Assembly (NCBI GenBank): GCA_001803415.1 | Contig: MHDC01000040.1 | Location: forward strand, 21,869 to 85,868 | From: Microgenomates group bacterium RBG_16_45_19 | GTDB taxonomy: Bacteria; Patescibacteriota; Microgenomatia; UBA1400; RBG-16-45-19 | Length of the DNA stretch: 64,000 bases | Direction: 5' to 3' | Shown here: positions 2,083-57,276 of the stretch, piece by piece | How positions within the stretch are numbered: the stretch's first letter is position 1 | Layout: every line of letters starts with the position of its first letter | Program-made: the position numbers and the translations under genes | The notes under the pieces: model-generated | What the model was told of the DNA's origin: nothing | Seen by the model: only the letters and a program-made list of their open reading frames with translations | Database searches by the model: none

Positions 2083-5000
2083 ATGCCAGATTTTGTTCAT
2101 CTCCACGTTCATTCGGAATACTCTCTCTTGGATGGCTTGGCTAAAATCCCTAAATTAGTCGAACGGGTTAAAGCCCATGGCCAATCAGCCGTGGCTTTAA
2201 CCGACCATGGCGCCATGTATGGCTGCGTCCATTTTTACAATGCCTGTCAAGAAGCTGGCCTTAAACCGATCATTGGGGTGGAAACTTATTTTGCCGAAGT
2301 CTCTCGTTTTAATAAACAATCCCGGCCGGGAGCCGATCAATTCCATTTGCTTCTCTTGGCCAAAAATGATCAGGGTTACCATAACCTCCTCAAACTTATT
2401 TCCTTGGCTCATTTGGAGGGTTTTTCCTACAAAGCCCGCATCGATTGGGAGAGTTTGAGCCAATATCACGACGGTCTTATCGCTACCACTGGTTGTGCCT
2501 CTGGTCTAATCCCCAAAAAATTACGTGATCACCGAGATGAGGAAGCCATAAAATGGATCAAACAGTTTCAAACTCTGTTCGGTTCTGATTTCTACGTCGA
2601 AATCCAGTCTCACCCCTCCCTCCCGGAAATTGAACCGTTGCGGGACCAAATGGTTGACTTGGCTAAACGCTACGGTTTGCCTCTTGTGGCTACCAATGAC
2701 GTCCATTACGTCGATGCGACTGACGCTTCCGCCCAAGACGCTCTCTTAGCCATCCAAACCAGAAAAACTCTTAATGATCCCAATCGGTTGTCTATGCTCG
2801 CTTCTCCTGATTACTACCTCAAAAGTAGTGCCGAAATGGTCGAAGCCTTAGCCGCCTATCCCGAAGCCTTAGCCAATACCCTCAAAATTGCCGACCAGTG
2901 TCAAGTCAGCTTACCCATCGGCAAAATGATTTTCCCGGAATATCCGCTTCAATCCGGGGCTACTCCTGAGAGTACTTTGCATCAGATTACTCATACTCGA
3001 CTGGCCGATCGTTTTCCTCAAGCCTCGACGGCCATTCTCGACCGTTTAAACTACGAACTCGATGTCATCTGTCAAAAAGGCTATGCCTCTTACTTCTTAA
3101 TCGTTCAAGATTTTGTAAACTGGGCTAAAGCCCAAGGCATCCGGGTTGGGCCGGGTCGGGGTTCGGCTGCCGGCTCGCTCGTCTCTTATGTCTTAAGGAT
3201 TACTTCAATTGACCCGCTCCAACATAATTTGCCCTTTGAACGCTTTATGAATCCCCAGCGGCCGTCACCGCCCGATATTGATATTGATATTGCTGATGTA
3301 CACCGGGATGAAGTCATCCGTTACGTGGCTAATAAATACGGTGAAGACCACGTGGCTCAAATCATCACCTTCGGCACCATGGAAGCCCGGGGTGCCATTC
3401 GGGATATCGGTCGGGTTATGGGCTTACCTTATGCTGAGCCCGATAAGATCGCTAAATTAATCCCCTTGGGTTACACCATTGACGAAGCCTTGTCTTCTAC
3501 TCTGGAACTTCAAGAATATTACCGCCAACCCAATTACCGGCGTTTGTTGGAACTGGCCAAAAAAGTTGAAGGTAACGCCCGTCATGCCTCCACCCATGCC
3601 GCTGGGGTGGTCATTGCCGATAAACCCTTGACCGAATATACCCCAATTCAGCGGGAAAGCCGGGGCGGTAAAATTGTCACTCAATACGATATGTACGCTT
3701 TGGATTTAAATATTAACGAAAACGCGATCGGCTTGTTAAAAATGGACTTTTTAGGTCTTAGGAATCTCTCTATCTTAGGCCAAGCCGTAGACTATGTGGC
3801 TCAGGCTCATCAGCACACCGTCGATCTCTCCAACCTCCCCCTGGATGATCCCGATGTCTTTGCCCTTTTATCTAAAGGTGAAACCACTGGTATTTTCCAG
3901 CTCGAATCGCCGGGAATGCGCCGGGTGGCCCAAAAATTAAAACCCAGCCGCTTTTCGGACATCACCGCCATGGTCGCTTTGTATCGTCCCGGTCCGATGC
4001 AACTGATTGACGATTTTATCGCCGGTAAAAATGACGCCGCCAAAATCCATTATCCCCATAAAGATCTCAAACCGGTGTTGGAGGAAACCTACGGCATTCC
4101 CGTTTATCAGGAACAAGTACTCCAAATTGCCCATGTCTTTGCCGGCTATAGTCTGAGTGAAGCTGACATTTTACGGCGGGCAATCGGTAAAAAGAAAAAG
4201 TCGATTTTAGACAAAGAGAAAAAGCGCTTTATCCAAGGATCACAAGCCAACGGTTACACCGTCAAGGATGCTGAAAAAATTTGGGGTTTTATTGAAAAAT
4301 TTGCCGGTTATGGGTTCAATAAAGCCCATTCCGCCTCTTACGCCATGATCGCCTACCAAACGGCCTATCTCAAAGCTAAATATCCGGTCGAGTACATGAC
4401 AGCGCTGCTCTCCGTCGAATCCGCTTCGCACTCCGCGGCCAAAGATGATAAGGTCAACCAGGGGATTGAAGAGTGTCACCGCATGGGCATCGTGGTGCTG
4501 CCCCCAGATATTAATGCTTCTCGAGCTAATTTTACTATCGAAGCTCATCCACCGTTGTTAGAACACAAGGCTATTCGTTATGGTTTGGGTGCCATCAAAA
4601 ACGTCGGTACCAGTGCCATTACTTCGATTATTGAGACCAAAGCTACTCACGGTCCCTTCACTTCCCTCACTGATTTTCTTGAAGCCGTTGATAGTCAAAA
4701 GGTAAACAAAAAGGTTTTAGAAAGTCTCGTCAAAGTTGGTTGTTTTGATCGCTTTAAAACCCGACGGGCTATCCTCGAAGCTCTTGACCAATTGCGTCAA
4801 CAGGTCCTCTTGAGTCACAAAGCGCGCCACCAGGACCAGACTGGTCTATTTACTACCGAAGCGATTGGCACCGACACCTTTGTCAACCTGCCCGAATTTC
4901 CACTCAACGTTTTAAGCCAATATGAAATCGAGTTGTTGGGGACCTCTCTCAATCAAGCCGGCAAAGTCGACTTAACCAGCCTCATCACCCAACAGGGTGC

Positions 5001-7640: not shown

Positions 7641-7712
7641 GGGCCCGTAGCTCAGCGGTAGAGCGACAGCCTTTTAAGCTGTGCGTCGAAGGTTCGATCC
7701 CTTCCGGGCTCA
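7641..7712 (+). tRNA. tRNA-Lys (anticodon UUU)
   Basis: 72-nt cloverleaf folded by hand. Acceptor GGGCCCG/CGGGCTC (one G-U), D arm GCTC-AGCGGTA-GAGC, anticodon stem ACAGC/GCTGT with loop CT-TTT-AA, T arm GAAGG-TTCGATC-CCTTC. No encoded CCA. Confidence 0.9.
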
Positions 7713-7719
7713 CCCACTT

Positions 7720-7794
7720 GGCCCCATCGTCTAGTGGTTAGGACAACGGGTTTTCATCCCGTAAACCAGGGTCCGACTCCCTGTGGGGTCACCA
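7720..7794 (+). tRNA. tRNA-Glu (anticodon UUC), CCA encoded
   Basis: Acceptor GGCCCCA/TGGGGTC, D arm GTCT-AGTGGTTA-GGAC, anticodon stem ACGGG/CCCGT with loop TT-TTC-AT, T arm CAGGG-TCCGACT-CCCTG. Discriminator A, then CCA at 7792-7794. Confidence 0.9.
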
Positions 7795-7863
7795 ATAGGG
7801 GATTGATTTATAAGCATACTTTCCCTGCTGGAAATTTGGTTTAAGTCCCATTAAGCTGGATTA

Positions 7864-8570: not shown

Positions 8571-10397
8571 ATGGCAACATCGGTCAAGACGGAACTGCTT
8601 GAAACCATCAAACTGGCTTTAACCCAACTCAAACTTAAACCGGTTGAGTTTTCCTTGGAACACCCGGCCAATGAAGCTCATGGCGATTACGCCGCTAATA
8701 TCGCTTTTGTACTTTATCCTCAAGTTGAAGACCAATGGTCAAATCCGCTTCAATTAGCCGAAGCTATTGTTGCTGCCATTAAATTAAAGGTCAGTCATCA
8801 ATCATCATCCATCATCGATTCTGTCTCTGTTGCCGGTCCTGGATTTATTAATTTTAGCCTCAAACCCGAGCATTTCCTTGACTACCTTAATCAGCTCATT
8901 AACTCAAAACAGATTCCTTTGACCACGGATCCTTTCATTAAGCAGCGTATCTGTGTCGAATATACCGACCCCAATCCTTTTAAAGAACTACATCTCGGCC
9001 ACCTATATTCCAACATTATTGGTGAAACCATGGCCCGCCTCTACGAAGCGGTTGGGGCTAAAGTCTGGCGGGCCGATTATTACGGTGACGTCGGCCAGCA
9101 CGTGGCTAAAGCCATTTGGGGCATGCAGCAATTATTAACTCAAACTCATACCACTTTGCCCAATTTAGCCAAAAAATCACTGTTAGAAAGGCAAAAATTC
9201 TTGGGTCAAAGCTATGCTTATGGTGTCAAACAGTTCGAGTCCGACCCTGAAGTTAAAGCCACCATTAATCGCCTCAATCCCTTGATCTATGCCATCGCTC
9301 AAGCTCTCCATCAAGCCAATGGTTGGCAGCCGGTGGTTGAGTATGAAGTCCATGTACCCCAGTCGGATTTTAATCGCGGTGAAATCAGGTCACTTTATCA
9401 ATCTGGTTTGGCTTGGAGTTTAGAGTATTTTGAATCGCTCTATCAATTCCTAGGTACCAAGTTTGACGGTTATTATCCCGAAAGTTTGATGGGGGAGTAC
9501 GGTTACCGTTTAGTCCAACACGGACTCAAACAAGGCGTTTTTACCAAAAGTCAGGGAGCCATCATTTTCCCGGGTGAGAAACATGGCACCCATACCCGGG
9601 TTTTTATTAACAAACTTAATTTGCCTACTTACGAAGCCAAAGAATTAGGCTTAGCACCGGCCAAATACCAAGACTTCCCCTATGACCAATCGCTGATTGT
9701 CACCGGGACCGAAATTAAAGACTACTTCAAGGTGGTCTTAACCGCTATGAAACTGGTTAGTCCTGATTTAGGTCATATAACCACCGTTTTATCTCACGGT
9801 ATGGTCAAACTCCCTCAGGGTAAAATGTCCTCTCGCTCGGGTAATGTTGTTACCGTCCAGGGTTTAATCGCTGAGGCCTCTGCCTATGCCCGCACTCTTT
9901 TTTCCGCCGAGACTCATTTGCCTGCCAAAGCCATGGATCAGATTGCTCAGGCTGTAGGTCTGGCCTCGATTCGTTACGCCTTTCTCAAAGGTGATGTCAC
10001 CACCGATGTTATTTTTGACTTTAAACAATCGATCAGTTTCGAGGGTAACTCCGGACCCTATCTCCAGTATACTTATGCTCGCTGCGCTTCGGTTCTATCA
10101 AAATCCCCATTAAAAATTAAAAACTTTAAATTAAAAATGGGAGCGTTAAATCCGGAAGAGTTGGCATTACTCCGCTGGTTTTACCGCTATCCTGAAGTGG
10201 TTGCCGCTGCTGCTCAAAACCTAACCCCGCACCTGCTATGTACCTACCTATATGAGTTAGCTCATCGGTTTAACCTCTTTTACCACCACCATTTAATTAT
10301 AGGTTCGGATTTCCGTCTGGGGCTGACCACCGCCACCGCCAAGATCTTAAAATCCGGTCTTGAGCTTTTGGGTATCGAGGCACCCGAAAAAATGTAA
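8571..10397 (+). CDS. argS: Arginine--tRNA ligase
   Basis: 608 aa. HIGH-type motif ELHLGHLYSN, KMSKS-like GKMSSRSG, DALR-type anticodon-binding C-terminus ending in M, as is typical for ArgRS. Confidence 0.9.
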   Translation: MATSVKTELLETIKLALTQLKLKPVEFSLEHPANEAHGDYAANIAFVLYPQVEDQWSNPLQLAEAIVAAIKLKVSHQSSSIIDSVSVAGPGFINFSLKPEHFLDYLNQLINSKQIPLTTDPFIKQRICVEYTDPNPFKELHLGHLYSNIIGETMARLYEAVGAKVWRADYYGDVGQHVAKAIWGMQQLLTQTHTTLPNLAKKSLLERQKFLGQSYAYGVKQFESDPEVKATINRLNPLIYAIAQALHQANGWQPVVEYEVHVPQSDFNRGEIRSLYQSGLAWSLEYFESLYQFLGTKFDGYYPESLMGEYGYRLVQHGLKQGVFTKSQGAIIFPGEKHGTHTRVFINKLNLPTYEAKELGLAPAKYQDFPYDQSLIVTGTEIKDYFKVVLTAMKLVSPDLGHITTVLSHGMVKLPQGKMSSRSGNVVTVQGLIAEASAYARTLFSAETHLPAKAMDQIAQAVGLASIRYAFLKGDVTTDVIFDFKQSISFEGNSGPYLQYTYARCASVLSKSPLKIKNFKLKMGALNPEELALLRWFYRYPEVVAAAAQNLTPHLLCTYLYELAHRFNLFYHHHLIIGSDFRLGLTTATAKILKSGLELLGIEAPEKM

Positions 10398-10407
10398 TAT
10401 TTGCCTT

Positions 10408-10436
10408 TTGACTTTCAAATTGCCTCAAGATACAAT
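10408..10436 (+). promoter_or_regulatory. Promoter of the canonical atp operon
   Basis: TTGACT (10408-10413), 17 nt, TACAAT (10431-10436). It lies only 8 nt upstream of the atpB ATG and there is no Shine-Dalgarno sequence. Confidence 0.6.
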
Positions 10437-10444
10437 CCATCTGC

Positions 10445-11260
10445 ATGGCTTTACACATCTCTATCGCCGCTGAAACGCTCTTTCATTTGGGCCCGGTCGC
10501 CATCACTAATTCTATTTTTACTAGTTGGCTTGTCTCGATTCTGATCATTTTAGTGGCCTTGAAATTCCATTATTCGACTAAAAGCGAAACCAAGCCGACT
10601 GGCTTACAAAACTTATTGGAAATGATTGTTGAGGCTTTTGAAAATCTCTGTAACTCTATTACTCAAAGCCGATTAAAAACGGCCGTCATTATCCCTATCC
10701 CTTTTGCCGCTTTTTGCTGGATTCTCCTCAACAACTGGTTTGGCTTACTGCCCGGAGTCGGCACTTTAGGTCTCACCGAGCCAACCGAACCACCCCAAGC
10801 TGCCTCACCTTTTTCGGTTTATGCCAAGGAAACTGAAGGCACTTCAGCCGAATCAGCTACCACTAAATTTGTGCCCATCTTTCGTGCCGGTACTGCCGAT
10901 CTTAACACCACTTTGGCTTTAGCTCTTGTTTCCGTCGGCGCCACCCAAGTCATCGGCGTTAAATTTGTTGGTCGTAGCTATTGGACTAAATTCTTTAATC
11001 TTAAAGGTATTTTTTCCTTTGTTGGTTTACTCGAATTCGTCTCCGAACTCAGTAAAATTGTCTCTTTTGCCTTCCGTCTTTTTGGCAACATTTTTGCCGG
11101 TGAAGTTCTTCTAACAGTTATTATGTTCCTGGTGCCTATCCTCGTCCCGGTCCCGTTTATCGGTCTGGAGTTTTTCGTCGGTATTATCCAGGCATTAGTT
11201 TTTGCCATGCTGACTATAGTCTTTATGAATATCGCTTCCGCCCATCAGGGGGAGCACTAA
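10445..11260 (+). CDS. atpB: F1Fo ATP synthase subunit a
   Basis: 271 aa polytopic protein. a-subunit signature helix FRLFGNIFAGE carries the essential Arg. First gene of the atpBEFHAGDC order. Confidence 0.9.
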   Translation: MALHISIAAETLFHLGPVAITNSIFTSWLVSILIILVALKFHYSTKSETKPTGLQNLLEMIVEAFENLCNSITQSRLKTAVIIPIPFAAFCWILLNNWFGLLPGVGTLGLTEPTEPPQAASPFSVYAKETEGTSAESATTKFVPIFRAGTADLNTTLALALVSVGATQVIGVKFVGRSYWTKFFNLKGIFSFVGLLEFVSELSKIVSFAFRLFGNIFAGEVLLTVIMFLVPILVPVPFIGLEFFVGIIQALVFAMLTIVFMNIASAHQGEH

Positions 11261-16529: not shown

Positions 16530-17231
16530 ATGTCTTCACTCCCTCCAGTAACCGTCATCCATGGTGATGCCCTACTTCAGAGTCGTCAATTCTTCCATCA
16601 GCTCTTCACCCAAACTCCGGCTCAGACAGAAACCGTCCGTTTTGAAGGTAAGGATCTGGATTTAACGGCGCTAGTTCAAGCTTGTCAGTCAACTAGTTTA
16701 ATTGCTTTAAACCGTCTCATCATCATTGAAAACCTCTTCCACCCATCGGCTAAAGCCAAACTGGCTACCACTAGCGCTTATTGCCGCGAATTAATCCAAG
16801 GGACCACCGCCTACCCGTTAGTTATTTACGAGCCGCGCTTGCTAACCCCAGCCCAACTCAAATTAGTCCAGGGTGCCTCAGTCAAGAGCTTTAAAACTCC
16901 TCCAGTTGTGTTTCAGTTTTTAGCCAACCTCGCTCCCCAAAAACAGGCTCAATTTATTCCGCTCTACCAACGCTCGCTCAAGAAGCAACCGGCTGAACTG
17001 CTCTTAGCCATGATCGCCCGCCAAATCCGGCTGTTGATTCAGCTGGCTGATCCTGATTTACACTTACCCCCCTGGCAAATGGCTAAGCTTTCGGCTCAAC
17101 GACGTCGCTTTACAGACGAACAATTGACCGCCTTCCATGACCAACTGGTTCTTCTCGACCGTCGCGCCAAACAAGGCCAAATCACTGGTTCGCTTGGTCA
17201 GGAATTGGCCATGCTTTTATTAAAGCTGTAG
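16530..17231 (+). CDS. holA: Possible DNA polymerase III delta subunit (short)
   Basis: 233 aa. Weak clamp-loader-delta-like pattern (VIHGDALL..., LIIIENLF block, helical C-terminal half). Short for HolA, so the assignment is tentative. Confidence 0.4.
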   Translation: MSSLPPVTVIHGDALLQSRQFFHQLFTQTPAQTETVRFEGKDLDLTALVQACQSTSLIALNRLIIIENLFHPSAKAKLATTSAYCRELIQGTTAYPLVIYEPRLLTPAQLKLVQGASVKSFKTPPVVFQFLANLAPQKQAQFIPLYQRSLKKQPAELLLAMIARQIRLLIQLADPDLHLPPWQMAKLSAQRRRFTDEQLTAFHDQLVLLDRRAKQGQITGSLGQELAMLLLKL

Positions 17232-40582: not shown

Positions 40583-42433
40583 TTAAATCATTTTGAGGTA
40601 CTCATCTTGAATCAGGTCGTCATAGAACAGATGTAATTTTGTTAAGGCACTTCTTTTGCGTTGGTCTAATTGATTGCCAGTCCACCTATATTTTCTCTTG
40701 AGCTCAGCATCCAATTGGGTAATTTCTACTCCCCTAAGTAAACCTATATTGATAAACTTCATTATCTCCCGTTCCTCAGGTGTCAGTGTCGCTAACGATT
40801 CGTACCAAGCTACTTGCTGACCCCCTCCAAGAGCTAATTGTCTATTGGCCGCTTCCAGCGCCATTTGCAGCTCTCGAATCTGATTTTCATAGTCGTGTGG
40901 TGCTCGCGGAATGTTATAAGTATGGTCTTCTCTTTCGGACGGAGGTTGGATTGACCTTAACTTTGTGGGTAAATTGTTTTCTTCTTCAATCTCTTCAGGA
41001 TGGGCTTCTTCATTAGGTATTTGAAAGACGTCGTCTCTGCCCGCCTCCTCCTCAACGGTCTTAATTGGAGCTAAATCATCCAAATACGAAGTCAATAGTT
41101 CAGCCTCATTTAACCCGCCTTCTGAAGCAACTTCATCGATTACTAAAGATGGCTTTGGTTGATAGCTCATCTTTCCCTTAACATAGACAACTTTACCTCC
41201 TAAAATTCCCGACAATATGTCGAGGTCGCAGGGATTGCTTATCAATAGATCAATTAATTCACTATTCCCCTCAATTATTGCTAAAGCTTGGGAAACAACC
41301 CTCACCTGATCAGTATTTAAATTATGCTTTTTGATAATCGAGACCATAAGTTGCTGTAATCGAAAATTATTGGGCAATTCTTCAACCATGGCAAAAAACT
41401 TAACTGGGTTAAATACCCCGTCGCCAATGTGACCTCCACCCTGAGAAGTACGGACTTGCCCGATAATTTCAGAAAAGGAATTTTCCGCGCACCGAATTTG
41501 TTGATAAAGCGACCCCACATCACTGTTCCACAGCATAGCTTTCTGTTTTGCCCATTGGATGGTTGCTTGGGATGTCTCTGGAGTTAGACCTAAGTTTTTA
41601 CCCGGTTGTTTGGTTGAAGATGAAGTAACGGCTAAATTTAAGATTTGTGACAACTGCAATCCTTGTTGACTCCATGGAGATACCTGGTATGAACGGAACA
41701 TGAAAGTAATCATGCGCGGGAATTTAACCGCCTTTGCCGACCGGGCAGCCGCTCGAACACGTTCATCAAATAATTCTTCATCAGTCATCCCAAAAGCTAA
41801 TCTGGCTTCGATAAATTGCGCGCCGATTTGCCGCAGCGCATCGGTTCGGTGATAGCCGTCCACAATATCAAAGACAATAAGCCCACCAACATTACGTGGT
41901 CGAACCCAAATATTTACCTATTGTCCTGTAGACAGTTGATCCTTCAGAATATCCCGGTGATCTTCATCCACAATGCTGTCTTCAGAAACAATGTCTTTTA
42001 TCGGAATATCCCTGACTGAATGATCAATCAGGGCACCTTTTTGGCCCAGAAACAGTAATTGCCAATCTGTGGCCGTATTTAAATCAAAGTTTTGATTATC
42101 ATGAATTACCACCACGTTTGCAGTCGTTTGGCCACACAGCTTGAGGGCAAAAACAATAGCTGGTTTTTGTAGCAACTCTAAATGTAGAGCTTGGCTGTCG
42201 TCATTAACTTCCTTGACGACCAGCGCATGAGGAACAAATATACCGTTATTAATTGTTTGTGCCAGCTGCTTAATCATGGCCTGGTCATATTCCTTGGGGA
42301 ATCTTTGTTTAAGCTGCTGCGTCATTAACAGACAATCGATCGGCACCTTTTCAACTGTCAAACTGAGCCCTTCCCGCTCTGAAAGGTACTCTGACACGCT
42401 CTCGTTTTGTTCAAGCTCTAACATAATCACCAT
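40583..42433 (-). pseudogene. ParB/Srx-fold domain protein with C-terminal sigma70-region-4-like HTH, interrupted by one in-frame TAG
   Basis: ORFs 41918..42433 and 40583..41863 share one frame and are separated only by TAG (minus-strand codon at 41920-41918). Reading through gives ...DILKDQLSTGQ*VNIWVRPRNVGGLIVFDIVDGYHRTDAL..., a contiguous ParB N-terminal-type domain with the DGxHR motif. C-terminal LTPEEREIMKF...RKRSALTKL resembles a sigma70 r4/LuxR HTH. About 38-40% GC against about 50% in the flanks. Confidence 0.6.
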
Positions 42434-42684
42434 TCAGGCAAGCATGGGTAAAATAAGCATATATCGTAATATATGAATCAAATCAGAACAATCAGTAACT
42501 TAACCATACTAGATATTATCACAACACTATCTGGAGAGAGTTATTGGAAAAAAGCAAGAAAGTTCGTGTTAGCGTTGAATAGGGTATCAGTTAGAATACG
42601 AGCCTGTCTGGAAATAGTTGCTTTGTGGTTTGATCTAATCCCGAGGTGAATTGATCACAGTCCTCCCGGGGTGAAAAGCAAAAT

Positions 42685-52692: not shown

Positions 52693-54980
<2,288 letters not shown>

Positions 54981-54982
54981 CT

Positions 54983-55252
54983 ATGCCAGACGAAGTCTTT
55001 AATTTGGTTATAGTTACCCCCGAAACCACTGTCTACGAAGGCCAAGTGGCCAAACTGATTGCCCCCGGCATCTATCAAGACATTGCCATTCTCCCTAACC
55101 ATACTCCGCTTTACGCTCAACTCATCAAAGGCCAGATCCGTTTGACTGATTCGACCGGTCAGGTGGAAACGTTTACCATTGACGGCGGCATCATCAGAGT
55201 CAAACACAATCACGTTTCCGTTATTGTCGGTTTCCACGGTCACTCACCTTAA
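54983..55252 (+). CDS. F1-type ATPase epsilon subunit paralog, beta-sandwich only (second set)
   Basis: 89 aa. LVIVTPETTVYEGQVAKLIAPGIYQDIAILPNHTPL aligns with the AtpC N-domain. The protein ends right after the sandwich, with no C-terminal helical hairpin. Confidence 0.8.
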   Translation: MPDEVFNLVIVTPETTVYEGQVAKLIAPGIYQDIAILPNHTPLYAQLIKGQIRLTDSTGQVETFTIDGGIIRVKHNHVSVIVGFHGHSP

Positions 55253-57276
55253 AAATCAACATAGATCTGGTTCAATCCCCACGGCAGCTCCGCCACTCCT
55301 TGAAGCCTCGATACCGCTTCACCAGCCGTTACCTTACTTGGGTCCAAAGCTAAGCTCAGCCGATATTCCCGTTTGGCTAAAGCTGGCCAACCGGCTGTCT
55401 CTAAAACCTGACCTAAGTTAAATCGGAAGTTAGCCATTCTGGGCTCTAACATCACCGCCCACCAGGCATTTCGCAACCGGCAGGCCGTTGCTTGGTCACC
55501 GGTACACCGCTCCATCGCCTTTATCAGACTTAGACCACCTTGACAAATGCCTGACCCATCTTCACTGGTCGTCTGTTGTTCATACCAGGCTTGACGCCAA
55601 CGCTGGACTAAATTCTCGCCTGGAAATAAAGCCTCGGTTACCTCAGGCATAGAGCTAACTTCTAGAAGACAGTCTAACCGTTGCCAAATATTTCCACTTT
55701 GAGGCAGAAACACACCTTGCCCCAAGCCTAGGAAATCACGATAATAAGGCGTTAACTCGGCCACATAGCTTGGCCTTCCATTCTCTCTAGCCCAGCTGAT
55801 CGCCTCCCCAATCCGAAACGGATTATCCGGGTACCCAATTACGCCAACCTCAGTCCCGGAGACTAAATAAGGACTAGCCGTCACCACCCTTAGATCCTGA
55901 CGTTCCTCTAAAACTTCATTGACATACCATAAACTGAAACAGGTCGCATCCCCTAAACAAATCACCACGGACTCCGGTGGTAGCTGGTCAATAGCCGTCT
56001 TCATCACCGGCCACCACTGGCTCTGGGTAACTTGTCTAATCTGCTCTAAATTACCCGGAAAAATCGCCAGCCACCACATAACGGACAATCCCAATAAAAC
56101 TATCCCCCAGCTTGATCGCTGGCGATTGGCGAGGCTAATAGTATAGGCCGCCCAAAAACCCAGCCACATTAAACCTGGGACATACATCCTGAGGTTAATT
56201 AACCGATCGCCTAAATTAGTTAACTCACTCCCGTCGGTTAGACTCACTGCCAAATAACCACCCACCCCCAAGGTCAATGTCAAAGTCAAAACCAGTAAGC
56301 CCATAAACCAAGTTTTTGGCCAGGTTTTGGCCCCTAAAACCAAGCCCACCAAGGCTAAACCGATGGCTCCCCAGCTCAAATTTTCGACCACCTCGCTAAA
56401 AAAATATCGATAGGCTAAACTCCAAAACTCTTTAAACTTAACCGCCGTCACATAGGTGGTTTGATTGAGGCCGGTCTCGACTCTCAAACCGCCGTAGATA
56501 TCCCGGAAAAAATAAGCCCCCAAGCCTTTGATCCCCGGTGCCCTTAACCAGTGCCAATCCATCGGCGCGGCGGTTAACCAATCCAGCCACCACCATTGAG
56601 CCAAAATCACTAGCAACCAGAGGCCTAAGGCTCGAACCGGAGTCGAGATTTGTCCCTGGCGCCACCATTGTTTGACCAACGGCCCCATCAAAATGACTAA
56701 CCCCGGCACCCACCACCAGCTTAACTGATGATGCATCACCATTAAACCTAAAGTTAAGGCTAAACCATACCAATTCCCGGCCTCTTTCGGTTTGAGGTAC
56801 AACTGACCGATAAACACTAAACTTCCTAAAGCCAATAATAAAGACCAACCCACCACTTCCATGACCACCCCCTGTAACCAAATGGGCACCATACTAAAAA
56901 CCATGATCGTTCCCCAAGCCACCGCCAAGTGATTCATTATTGGTAAACCGGCTTTACCCCCTCGGCTTAATTTAAGACTTTGGTTAAACACCATCCAAAA
57001 ACCGCAACCAGCCAAGGCCATCATTAAGGCTGCTAAGAGATTGACTTGATGCACCGGAGCTAGGGGTAGGGGCAAATGGCTGGTTAAAAAAATTAATCCC
57101 ACCAAGACTGGATAACCCGGTGGATGAGCCGCTTTTAAACCGTAGCCGGCCGCCATCAATTCATCGGCATCAGTTAAACCAGTTGGCGTTGTCGCCGCCG
57201 TCAGAGCATACCAACCAAAGAGCCAAACGAACACTAATCCACCCCAAAAAACCTGATGCCGGTAAAAGCGCTTCAT
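55249..57276 (-). CDS. DUF2723/TMEM260-like GT-C-fold membrane glycosyltransferase-like protein with C-terminal TPR region (paralog B)
   Basis: 675 aa, polytopic. LTDADELMAAGYGLKAAHPPGYPVLVGLIFL, the same signature as paralog A. TPR-like tail (RFNLGQVLETAGWPALAKREYRLSLALDP). Its stop overlaps the epsilon-like stop in TTAA (55249-55252). Confidence 0.7.
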   Translation of the reverse strand: MKRFYRHQVFWGGLVFVWLFGWYALTAATTPTGLTDADELMAAGYGLKAAHPPGYPVLVGLIFLTSHLPLPLAPVHQVNLLAALMMALAGCGFWMVFNQSLKLSRGGKAGLPIMNHLAVAWGTIMVFSMVPIWLQGVVMEVVGWSLLLALGSLVFIGQLYLKPKEAGNWYGLALTLGLMVMHHQLSWWWVPGLVILMGPLVKQWWRQGQISTPVRALGLWLLVILAQWWWLDWLTAAPMDWHWLRAPGIKGLGAYFFRDIYGGLRVETGLNQTTYVTAVKFKEFWSLAYRYFFSEVVENLSWGAIGLALVGLVLGAKTWPKTWFMGLLVLTLTLTLGVGGYLAVSLTDGSELTNLGDRLINLRMYVPGLMWLGFWAAYTISLANRQRSSWGIVLLGLSVMWWLAIFPGNLEQIRQVTQSQWWPVMKTAIDQLPPESVVICLGDATCFSLWYVNEVLEERQDLRVVTASPYLVSGTEVGVIGYPDNPFRIGEAISWARENGRPSYVAELTPYYRDFLGLGQGVFLPQSGNIWQRLDCLLEVSSMPEVTEALFPGENLVQRWRQAWYEQQTTSEDGSGICQGGLSLIKAMERCTGDQATACRLRNAWWAVMLEPRMANFRFNLGQVLETAGWPALAKREYRLSLALDPSKVTAGEAVSRLQGVAELPWGLNQIYVDF

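What the first reader, a model, noticed from the sequence alone, without database searches (positions are those of the whole stretch)
40583..42433. ParB-like gene split by a single in-frame TAG inside its conserved domain
The two minus-strand ORFs share one frame and are separated only by TAG (codon at 41920-41918). The translation across it (...HRDILKDQLSTGQ*VNIWVRPRNVGGLIVFDIVDGYHRTDALRQIG...) is a continuous ParB/Srx-type N-terminal domain, and the stop sits between its two conserved blocks. The options are (i) a fresh nonsense mutation giving a pseudogene, (ii) programmed read-through, or (iii) a gene from a mobile element or phage that reads TAG as sense. TAG does terminate well-conserved host genes here (the holA-like gene at 17229-17231 and the beta paralog at 54978-54980), so the host code is standard. 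The gene also fuses a degenerate ParB-like repeat, an acidic linker and a sigma70-r4-like HTH, which is an unusual architecture.
Basis: seen in the sequence. Interest (0 to 1): 0.55.

Follow-up and report, generated by a model that had tools for sequence, protein, structure and literature searches.

The report
Nonsense-interrupted tandem ParB-fold regulator gene
A single TAG stop really does cut a 616-codon gene for an uncharacterised DNA-binding regulator in a groundwater "Microgenomates" bacterium, and it is most likely an ordinary, recent C-to-T nonsense mutation in a dispensable gene, not recoding.

Summary
On the minus strand, a 171-codon ORF (42433-41921), one TAG (41920-41918) and 444 further open codons (41917-40586) lie in one frame. 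The same TAG is in a second assembly.

Seven homologues (46-58% identical, 613-647 aa) are each one uninterrupted protein. The stop aligns with a variable position (Q/L/L/E/E/E/K). The nearest homologue reads GGA CAA CAG GTC where the window reads GGA CAA TAG GTA, one C-to-T change.

TAG is a true terminator of holA and of an ATP-synthase paralogue here. No tRNA(CUA) lies in the window, no relative was found in viral contigs, and the local RNA fold is unremarkable. Residues downstream of the stop are as conserved as in intact homologues, so the lesion is recent or tolerated.

The stop lies in a loop of the second ParB/Srx domain.

One oddity remains. A 39%-identical relative in another Gottesmanbacteria genome has an in-frame TAA one codon upstream of the aligned position, also a lineage-specific singleton. 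Two further relatives carry other lesions.

Best reading: a young nonsense allele or pseudogene (about 0.6). A leaky stop or a functional split is possible (about 0.2).

The parts
40583..42433 (-). The whole interrupted gene: 171 codons, TAG, 444 codons, TAA. It is a homologue of single 613-647 aa proteins of Candidatus Gottesmanbacteria.
41918..42433 (-). Upstream ORF of 171 aa plus the TAG, annotated in NCBI as OGV95847.1. It encodes all of ParB/Srx-fold domain 1 plus the first strand and helix of domain 2.
41918..41920 (-). The in-frame TAG (codon 172). It aligns with Q/L/L/E/E/E/K in homologues, and the nearest homologue has CAG here. It lies in the loop between helix 157-167 and strand 175-182.
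40583..41917 (-). The same-frame open stretch after the stop (444 codons plus TAA). It has no further stop or frameshift, and its conserved residues are kept as well as in intact homologues (6 mismatches in 119 columns, against 3-13).
40583..41863 (-). Downstream ORF as annotated in NCBI (426 aa, OGV95846.1). It starts at the first canonical in-frame start, GTG 41863, which is Val191 of the DIVDGYHR motif. A product from here would lack strands 175-182 and 185-192 of domain 2.
42041..42382 (-). ParB/Srx-fold domain 1 (residues 18-131). It has no GERR or DGxHR motif; ELLHKP stands in that place.
   Evidence: Model of residues 1-134 (pLDDT 87.1), Foldseek to sulfiredoxin 1xw3 at E = 1.5e-5, also ParB, Noc, PadC and KorB. 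No sequence similarity to domain 2.
41744..42028 (-). ParB/Srx-fold domain 2 (residues 136-230). This is the domain interrupted by the TAG.
   Evidence: weak SerK match at residues 144-208
41846..41860 (-). DGYHR motif (residues 192-196). It stands where ParB has Box II (GERRxR). G193, H195 and R196 are invariant in 89 family members.
41201..41734 (-). Helical domain (residues 234-411). The Foldseek alignments to Noc and ParB run over about 250-270 columns, long enough to reach past domain 2 into the part equivalent to the central DNA-binding domain.
40913..41125 (-). Acidic linker (residues 437-507), mostly low-confidence and without predicted secondary structure: pLDDT is below 50 at 437-448 and 473-507.
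40586..40807 (-). C-terminal HTH of sigma70 region 4 / LuxR-GerE type (residues 543-616), preceded by a long helix at 512-535.
   Evidence: Family profile against PDB sequences: RpoE E = 0.0015, NarL and GerE about 0.002-0.003. Pfam Sigma70_r4 or r4_2 in 13 matches and GerE in 3 among 89 members.
42434..42684 (.). AT-rich (about 40% GC) intergenic region between this gene and the neighbouring gene on the opposite strand. It is the presumed promoter region.
   Evidence: no convincing consensus promoter

Best explanation
The gene is a lineage-specific accessory regulator. It has two tandem ParB/Srx-fold, NTP-binding-type domains, a helical domain, an acidic linker and a sigma70-r4/LuxR-type HTH. 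In the RBG_16_45_19 population it has suffered a recent single-base nonsense mutation, CAG (Gln) to TAG, at codon 172.

Under the standard code that this genome uses, translation ends there. The product is a 171-residue fragment: an intact domain 1 plus the first strand and helix of domain 2. The nucleotide-binding core (DGYHR), the helical domain and the HTH are lost, apart from whatever basal near-cognate read-through occurs; a Gln inserted there would restore the residue that the nearest homologue carries. The allele is therefore a null or strong hypomorph, a young pseudogene, possibly still segregating in the population.

Shown: the stop, its reproducibility, the intact homologues, the one-step relation to the nearest homologue's codon, TAG as a working terminator, the fold and the position of the stop in it.

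Inferred: the direction and recency of the mutation, the loss of function, and the role as a regulator.
For: 1. All seven close homologues are single ORFs of 613-647 aa covering 96-100% of the joined sequence.
2. The stop aligns with a variable column (Q/L/L/E/E/E/K) just after the invariant G170-Q171. The nearest homologue reads GGA CAA CAG GTC where the window reads GGA CAA TAG GTA, one C-to-T transition.
3. TAG terminates holA and an ATP-synthase paralogue in the same window. All three stop codons are in use, and no tRNA(CUA) lies in the 64 kb.
4. The stop is in an independent assembly that differs by one SNP, and in the NCBI record.
5. There is no second lesion in the 444 downstream codons. 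At columns invariant in the other seven proteins, the window mismatches 1/30 before and 6/119 after the stop, within the range of intact homologues (0-7 and 3-13). This means recency.
6. The family looks dispensable and mobile. Its context differs in every genome: beside uvrC here, next to a serine recombinase and a Rep gene in L001, between maf and a PEGA-domain gene in L002, after rpoD in L010 and L011. The gene's GC content is offset from its flanks in both directions.
7. Other members are also found damaged: L010 (TAA), L022 (TAA and TAG) and L013 (a frameshift in an A7 run).
8. A second ENA contig, L005, ends at exactly the base before the T of TAG. That is where a de Bruijn graph breaks at a SNP, so it hints at a T/C polymorphism (inference).
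Against: - The gene shows no decay at all downstream of the stop, which a tolerated or functional stop would also explain.
- A relative only 39% identical (L010, Gottesmanbacteria RIFOXYB1_FULL_47_11) has an in-frame TAA at the adjacent aligned codon, replacing the conserved Gln. It is reproduced in two samples. Under a random-nonsense model, a second stop within one codon of the first has a chance of only about 1-3%.
- No read data were available, so allele frequencies are unknown.
- No intact allele of this gene was found. The search was limited: an exact look-up of only the Gln-restored 616-aa sequence and one DNA pattern scan of the JGI metagenomes, which found nothing at all.
Confidence: 0.62

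Rival explanations
1. The stop is tolerated or used. The loop between helix 1 and strand 2 of the second ParB/Srx domain would be a permissive break point. The gene would then be expressed either as a leaky-stop pair (an abundant 171-aa N-fragment plus a little full-length protein by Gln-tRNA read-through) or as two polypeptides that reassemble. Either would serve as a throttle on a potentially harmful DNA-binding regulator.
For: - L010 carries an independent in-frame TAA at the adjacent aligned codon, with a GTG one codon later, and is otherwise intact.
- L013 has a frameshift in an A7 run about 17 codons upstream of the same site, with the downstream ORF starting at the conserved Met.
- There is no decay downstream of either stop.
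- Both stops replace Gln codons, so near-cognate read-through would restore the native residue (established knowledge of UAG/UAA misreading by tRNA-Gln).
- The chance of adjacency is about 1-3%.
Against: - Neither stop is conserved. The seven closest relatives of the window gene and the three closest full-length relatives of L010 are all intact.
- The GTG after the L010 stop is simply the ancestral Val codon, also GTG in L011.
- In the window there is no canonical in-frame start until GTG, 19 codons downstream, inside the fold.
- No significant RNA structure (z = -0.56) and no shared nucleotide motif surrounds the two stops.
- L013 was found by looking for truncations near this site, so it is a biased observation.
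- L022 carries stops at other positions, consistent with plain decay in this family.
Confidence: 0.2
2. Sequencing or assembly error: the true base is C (CAG) and the gene is intact.
For: - The genome is a metagenome-assembled one of modest coverage.
- The sister homologue L007 from the same sample series has N-gaps inside this gene.
- L005 breaks at exactly this base.
Against: The same TAG is in a separately assembled MEGAHIT contig from another ENA analysis that differs by a SNP elsewhere. Substitution errors in a consensus at about 19x Illumina coverage are rare; the coverage figure is inferred from the bin name RBG_16_45_19.
Confidence: 0.04
3. TAG is decoded as an amino acid here, through a suppressor tRNA, pyrrolysine, or a mobile element or phage that uses a TAG-sense code.
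For: The stop aligns with Gln in the nearest homologue, the residue used in known TAG-recoded phages. The gene's GC content (0.43) is below that of the rest of the window (0.49).
Against: - TAG terminates conserved host genes in the same window.
- There is only one in-frame TAG in 616 codons, and the gene ends with TAA.
- No tRNA(CUA) lies in the window.
- No relative was found in 2.9 million viral contigs.
- No integrase, repeats or phage genes flank the gene.
- The aligned column is variable, unlike pyrrolysine sites.
Confidence: 0.03

Closest known systems
Fusions of the ParB-CTPase (ParB/Srx) fold with Sigma70 domains, as surveyed in PMC12704722 (PNAS 2025)
   Same: An N-terminal ParB/Srx fold with a conserved Box II arginine (DGYHR, with G193, H195 and R196 invariant) and a C-terminal sigma70 region 4-type HTH. 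Presumed to be an NTP-dependent transcription regulator. The tested ParB-Sigma70 fusion bound ATP.
   Different: The Gottesmanbacteria subfamily has two ParB/Srx domains in tandem, the first lacking the motif, a large helical domain and a roughly 70-residue acidic linker. Pfam models barely detect either end in this protein. Whether it belongs to the same clade as the surveyed proteins was not tested. Nucleotide binding is untested.
Noc / ParB / KorB CTP-switch DNA clamps
   Same: These are the best structural matches over about 250-270 columns, covering the N-domain plus the following helical part: 7ng0 at E = 8e-6, also 6sdk, 7bnr, 6t1f and 8qa9.
   Different: - There is no GERRxR motif and no match above the Pfam ParB_N threshold.
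- No parA neighbour is visible in the gene maps of the window or of L001 and L002. A parS site was not looked for.
- The C-terminus is a sigma r4/LuxR HTH, not a ParB dimerisation domain.
- Sequence identity is only 13-16%.
Ordinary nonsense pseudogenes, or segregating null alleles, of accessory genes in bacterial populations
   Same: A single C-to-T change in a Gln codon, intact orthologues, a lineage-specific tip event, a gene with variable context, and other family members also damaged.
   Different: There is no secondary decay yet. A second family member has a stop at the adjacent codon.
Programmed stop-codon read-through or recoding (Sec, Pyl, viral leaky stops, TAG-recoded phages)
   Same: A single in-frame stop within a conserved domain, aligned to Gln.
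   Different: - The stop is not conserved.
- No recoding element or significant RNA structure was found.
- No suppressor tRNA lies in the window.
- The host uses TAG as a terminator.

Membership tests
ParB/Srx (ParB-CTPase) fold superfamily | The characteristic strand-helix-strand-strand-helix-strand-helix fold | tested here: met
   AlphaFold2 model with pLDDT 87.6. Foldseek against PDB: Noc 7ng0 at E = 8e-6, also ParB, PadC, Srx, KorB, SbnI and SerK. Domain 1 alone: Srx 1xw3 at E = 1.5e-5.
ParB/Srx (ParB-CTPase) fold superfamily | A Box II / P-motif with a conserved arginine (GERRxR, GCHR or DGxHR types) | tested here: met
   DGYHR at residues 192-196. G193, H195 and R196 are invariant in 89 family members. 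Domain 1 lacks the motif (ELLHKP).
ParB/Srx (ParB-CTPase) fold superfamily | Significant sequence match to the curated model (Pfam PF02195) | tested here: not met
   No hit at E up to 1 for the window protein. One of the 8 close members matches at E = 0.085, and 5 of 89 at E up to 0.01.
ParB/Srx (ParB-CTPase) fold superfamily | Nucleotide (CTP or ATP) binding | not testable with these tools
   Needs biochemistry such as DRaCALA or ITC.
Canonical ParB/Noc partition or occlusion proteins | A parA partner or ParA-binding motif, a parS-type site, and a ParB C-terminal dimerisation domain | tested here: not met
   The neighbours are uvrC and a membrane protein. The contexts of L001 and L002 also lack parA. 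The C-terminus is a sigma r4/LuxR-type HTH. A parS site was not looked for.
ParB-fold / Sigma70 fusion regulators (PMC12704722) | A ParB fold and a sigma70 region 4-type HTH in one polypeptide | tested here: met
   Met at family level only. Sigma70_r4 and r4_2 give 13 matches among 89 members, and the family profile hits RpoE, NarL and GerE at E about 0.002. The window protein itself has no significant Pfam hit.
Programmed stop-codon read-through / recoding site | The stop is conserved at the same codon in orthologues | tested here: not met
   All 7 close homologues have a sense codon there. L010 has a stop at the adjacent codon, but its own relatives are intact.
Programmed stop-codon read-through / recoding site | A stimulatory RNA element or a dedicated tRNA | tested here: inconclusive
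   The fold of 161 nt around the stop has z = -0.56. No tRNA(CUA) lies in the window. The rest of the genome could not be searched.
TAG-sense genetic code (host or mobile element) | TAG is not used as a terminator, and there are many in-frame TAGs | tested here: not met
   TAG ends holA, an ATP-synthase paralogue and two other ORFs. This gene has a single in-frame TAG. No viral relatives were found.
Nonsense pseudogene / null allele | Intact orthologues, with the stop one substitution away from the orthologous sense codon | tested here: met
   CAG in L001 against TAG in the window, within the identical context GGA CAA _AG GT.
Nonsense pseudogene / null allele | Relaxed constraint or additional lesions downstream | tested here: not met
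   There are no further stops or frameshifts. Conservation is equal to that of intact homologues. This is compatible only with a very recent event.
Naturally split (two-gene) form of the family | The downstream half has its own start at the break, and the split is shared by related genomes | tested here: not met
   In the window the first canonical in-frame start is GTG, 19 codons downstream, inside the fold. L010 has a GTG one codon after its TAA, but that is the ancestral Val codon and the split is unique to L010.

The most novel reading that the evidence does not exclude
The helix 1 / strand 2 loop of the catalytic ParB/Srx domain is a recurrently selected break point in this Patescibacteria-specific family of ParB-sigma-r4 regulators. 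Independent lineages (TAG here, TAA at the adjacent codon in L010, an A7 frameshift just upstream in L013) would have converged on leaky or split expression. That yields a standalone tandem-domain N-fragment plus a trace of full-length protein, a heritable and revertible throttle on a regulator.
Probability: 0.12. Interest if true: 0.6.

Novelty: new member of a known kind. Interest (0 to 1): 0.27.

Why it matters
If it is a plain nonsense allele, it matters only for annotation. The two "hypothetical proteins" OGV95847.1 and OGV95846.1 are halves of one gene and should be flagged as a pseudogene or interrupted CDS.

The work also defines a family specific to Patescibacteria/CPR genomes, at least 433 cluster representatives. 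These are ParB-fold plus sigma70-r4 proteins. A Gottesmanbacteria subfamily has two ParB/Srx domains in tandem, and in some genomes the gene sits directly after rpoD. The family is uncharacterised and may be a nucleotide-switched transcription factor in organisms whose regulation is poorly known.

If the adjacent-codon stops in two lineages were not a coincidence, this would be a rare bacterial case of convergent stop-codon-based control of expression. The present evidence does not support that.

Tried and rejected
- **Pfam and NCBIfam on the joined protein** gave no significant domain. A sequence profile of 8 members against PDB gave only coiled-coil noise. Structure prediction was needed.
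- **A search for an intact allele failed.** The Gln-restored full-length sequence is not in the 15-billion-protein collection (only this one of the possible restored sequences was looked up). A DNA pattern with NNN at the stop found nothing in JGI metagenomes. The 426-aa ORF was not found on other contigs.
- **A profile search with the 89-member alignment** in the search for homologous proteins returned only the same 7 proteins, so that search was wasted.
- **L020** looked like another disrupted copy. It is an error-ridden duplicate of L016, with 18 one-base gaps in 2.1 kb, and was discarded.
- **Several loci are not independent.** L018 and L025 are the same sequence as L010, L017 equals L007, and L014 and L015 equal L013.
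- **L007**, a 57%-identical homologue, has an N-run exactly over the site and is uninformative.
- **P0044 and P0117**, proteins that start near the break, are only contig-edge truncations.
- **dN/dS was not possible.** Close variants (P0011, P0088, L006) differ by at most one residue or one SNP, and the next relatives are about 58% identical.
- **No repeats, integrase or attachment-like sites** flank the gene in the window. Rfam finds only two tRNAs in the window. The promoter and terminator scans are at background.
- **Shine-Dalgarno arguments for re-initiation were dropped**, because most genes in this window have no SD.
- **hhalign of domain 1 against domain 2** found no similarity, so the duplication is supported only by structure.
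Full report
**1. The observation**

The minus strand of 40583-42433 reads ATG (42433), then 171 codons ending ...CTG TCT ACA GGA CAA, then TAG (41920-41918), then GTA AAT ATT TGG GTT ... for 444 more codons, then TAA (40585-40583), all in one frame.

Several measures set the gene apart or rule out local signals.
- The gene is 42.7% GC, against 49.4% for the rest of the window.
- ARAGORN finds only tRNA-Lys(UUU) and tRNA-Glu(UUC) in the 64 kb.
- Rfam finds nothing else.

Among the 46 long non-overlapping ORFs (at least 120 codons), stop usage is TAA 30, TGA 11, TAG 5, one of the TAGs being the stop studied here. TAG is a genuine terminator in this window.
- The holA product matches the DNA pol III delta C-terminal domain to position 119 of 121, at residue 229 of 233. 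An unrelated phosphoglucomutase gene follows 6 nt later.
- The ATP-synthase alpha/beta paralogue also ends in TAG.

**2. Is the TAG real?**

An exact look-up identifies the source as Microgenomates group bacterium RBG_16_45_19, on a contig of 89,818 nt. The deposited annotation calls two hypothetical proteins, OGV95847.1 (171 aa) and OGV95846.1 (426 aa, from GTG 41863).

Two ENA MEGAHIT contigs from other analyses carry the 171-aa ORF.
- L006 (ERZ4902948) runs through the site. It has the same TAG and differs from the window by one synonymous SNP.
- L005 (ERZ4902961) ends at exactly the base before the T of TAG. A de Bruijn unitig ends at that point when the next base is polymorphic. I therefore take it as a hint, not proof, of a T/C polymorphism in that sample.

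An assembly artefact is therefore unlikely.

**3. Homologues**

The joined sequence finds only seven proteins in 5.8 billion clusters. They are 613-647 aa long and 46-58% identical, cover 96-100% of the query, and each is a single ORF.

In the alignment the stop falls in a variable column (Q, L, L, E, E, E, K), immediately after the invariant G170-Q171 and before V-N/P-I-W/R-V-R. At the DNA level the nearest homologue (L001) reads GGA CAA CAG GTC AAC ATC TGG. The window reads GGA CAA TAG GTA AAT ATT TGG, which is one C-to-T transition. L002 and L009 have GAG at this codon, and L016 has AAA.

A scan of one genome per GTDB species finds the family only in Candidatus Gottesmanbacteria and other Patescibacteria MAGs. 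A scan of 2.9 million viral contigs finds none.

Gene contexts differ in every genome.
- uvrC and a membrane-protein gene flank it here.
- A serine recombinase and a Rep gene lie nearby in L001.
- It sits between maf and a PEGA-domain gene, with mreB next, in L002.
- It lies directly downstream of an rpoD-like sigma gene in L010 and L011.

The gene's GC content departs from its flanks in both directions: -0.067 in the window, +0.066 in L001, +0.07 in L007, -0.05 in L002. This looks like a dispensable gene that moves between genomes.

**4. State of the interrupted gene**

There is no second lesion in the 444 downstream codons. At columns where the other seven proteins are identical, the window differs at 1 of 30 before the stop and 6 of 119 after it. 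The same leave-one-out test on the intact homologues gives 0-7 and 3-13. The lesion is therefore either very young or not inactivating.

Other signals are absent or weak.
- The RNA fold of 161 nt around the stop is unremarkable (z = -0.56).
- Most genes in this window lack a Shine-Dalgarno sequence, so SD-based arguments carry no weight.
- The first canonical in-frame start after the TAG is GTG, 19 codons downstream, at V191 of DIVDGYHR.

**5. What the protein is**

Sequence models barely see it. The only matches are a weak SerK hit (E = 0.029) spanning residues 144-208 and no ParB_N hit.

An exhaustive profile search finds 433 cluster representatives at E up to 1e-3. Most are 430-560 aa and match only profile positions of about 138-401.

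With an 89-sequence alignment, AlphaFold2 gives a confident model (pLDDT 87.6, pTM 0.70).

| Residues | Element |
|---|---|
| 18-131 | Domain 1 |
| 136-230 | Domain 2: strand 136-144, helix 157-167, strands 175-182 and 185-192, helix 194-203, strand 207-214, helix 218-230 |
| 234-411 | Helical domain |
| 413-426 | Beta hairpin |
| 437-507 | Acidic linker, mostly low confidence (pLDDT below 50 at 437-448 and 473-507) |
| 512-535 | Long helix |
| 543-615 | Helical C-terminal domain |

Foldseek against PDB returns these matches:
- Noc (7ng0, E = 8e-6);
- ParB (6sdk, 7bnr, 6t1f), the pNOB8 ParB and PadC;
- sulfiredoxin, KorB, SbnI and SerK.

Residues 1-134 modelled alone (pLDDT 87.1) hit sulfiredoxin (1xw3, E = 1.5e-5), ParB, Noc, PadC and KorB. 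The N-terminal domain is therefore a second ParB/Srx fold, although hhalign detects no sequence similarity between the two domains.

G193, H195 and R196 of DGYHR, which stands where ParB has Box II, are invariant in the 89 sequences.

The C-terminal domain is of the sigma70 region 4 / LuxR type. The family profile hits RpoE (E = 0.0015) and NarL and GerE (about 0.002-0.003). Pfam Sigma70_r4 or r4_2 matches 13 times and GerE 3 times among the 89 members.

Fusions of the ParB-CTPase fold with Sigma70 domains were reported in a 2025 survey, and the tested fusion bound ATP (PMC12704722). The architecture class is therefore known. The tandem ParB/Srx arrangement is a variation on it.

The TAG (residue 172) lies in the loop between the first helix and the second strand of domain 2. 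The terminated product is domain 1 plus a stub of domain 2. It lacks DGYHR, the helical domain and the HTH.

**6. The one thing that does not fit neatly**

L010 (Gottesmanbacteria RIFOXYB1_FULL_47_11, 39% identical) reads ...ATG GGG AAG GGA TAA AAG GTG CGT ATC TGG..., that is G-stop-K-V-R-I-W-V-R-A-R. It has an in-frame TAA in place of the conserved Gln, one codon upstream of the window's stop in the alignment. The same sequence occurs in two JGI samples.

Apart from that stop the L010 gene is open, and its conservation gives no clear sign of decay. It mismatches 6 of 27 and 16 of 113 columns that are invariant in the other three full-length relatives, which is more than L011 (3/24, 6/103) or P0010 (6/27, 7/104), as expected of the most divergent of the three.

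In the window gene 223 of 616 codons are one step from a stop, 59 of them by transition. Two of those lie within one codon of the site. The chance that a second independent nonsense mutation lands adjacent is therefore about 1-3%.

Three points argue against a programmed feature.
- The nearest full-length relatives of L010 (565, 545 and 516 aa) are intact, so this split is also a tip singleton.
- The GTG after its stop is the ancestral valine codon, also GTG in L011.
- The two sites share no nucleotide motif.

Other members are damaged elsewhere.
- L022 has in-frame TAA and TAG at about profile positions 139 and 203, while its neighbours use the standard code.
- L013 (P0121) has a one-base deficit in an A-run, GAAAAAAAGCC, about 17 codons upstream of the GQ site. 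That splits it into a 94-aa and a 370-aa ORF. I found L013 by looking for truncations near this site, so it cannot be counted as unbiased evidence.

I read this as a family that is frequently caught decaying, with one suggestive positional coincidence.

**7. Verdict**

| Reading | Probability |
|---|---|
| Recent, lineage-specific CAG-to-TAG nonsense mutation; a null or hypomorphic allele of an accessory ParB-fold/sigma-r4 regulator, possibly still polymorphic | about 0.62 |
| Tolerated or exploited break: a leaky stop or a split protein | about 0.2 |
| Sequencing or assembly error | about 0.04 |
| TAG read as sense | about 0.03 |

The remainder is unassigned. The finding is real but ordinary, and the family itself is the more interesting by-product.

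Noticed in passing
L010:8451-8459 (same sequence as L018, L024 and L025): A 39%-identical relative in Gottesmanbacteria RIFOXYB1_FULL_47_11 has an in-frame TAA replacing the conserved Gln, one codon upstream of the position aligned with the window's TAG. AAG GTG follows it. The same sequence is present in two JGI samples. Its closest relatives are intact.
   Followed up: yes
L013:640-720 (same sequence as L014 and L015): A broader-family member (P0121) is split into 94-aa and 370-aa ORFs by a one-base deficit in an A7 run (GAAAAAAAGCC), about 17 codons upstream of the GQ site. It could be slippage-prone. The same sequence was found on contigs from ENA, JGI and Logan.
   Followed up: partly
L022:3998-4186: Another family member (33% identical) carries in-frame TAA and TAG within the ParB/Srx domain, while neighbouring ORFs use the standard code. 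It is probably a decaying pseudogene.
   Followed up: partly
L005:1193 (contig end), equivalent to window 41921: An independent MEGAHIT contig (ERZ4902961) terminates at exactly the base before the T of the TAG. That is what a SNP bubble in the assembly graph would produce, so the site may be polymorphic in that sample.
   Followed up: partly
L007:1858-2044, 3288-3465, 7646-7832, 10289-10466: A repeat of about 190 nt (88-92% identical) occurs four times in 18 kb of Gottesmanbacteria RBG_16_52_11, and two copies flank the homologous gene. That scaffold also has N-runs inside the gene, one of them exactly over the site of interest.
   Followed up: partly
L010:6789-7958 and L011:6724-7995: In the L010/L011 subclade the gene starts 6 nt after an rpoD-like primary sigma factor gene on the same strand. 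Together with the sigma-r4-like HTH, this hints at a role in transcription initiation. This adjacency is absent from the window, L001, L002 and L021.
   Followed up: partly
L001:8-2229: The nearest homologue (P0001) lies about 3.5 kb from a serine recombinase gene and a REP_ORF2-G2P rolling-circle Rep gene. It may therefore sit on or beside an integrated mobile element.
   Followed up: no
window, all gene starts: Most of the roughly 45 genes in the window have no recognisable Shine-Dalgarno sequence upstream. A clear exception is 59632, with AAGGAGGAGGTG.
   Followed up: no
window:57279-59477 (-): A protein like the TrwB/TraG type IV coupling protein or a HerA-type ATPase (732 aa, ending in TAG) lies next to a TMEM260-like O-mannosyltransferase homologue (55249-57276).
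   Followed up: no
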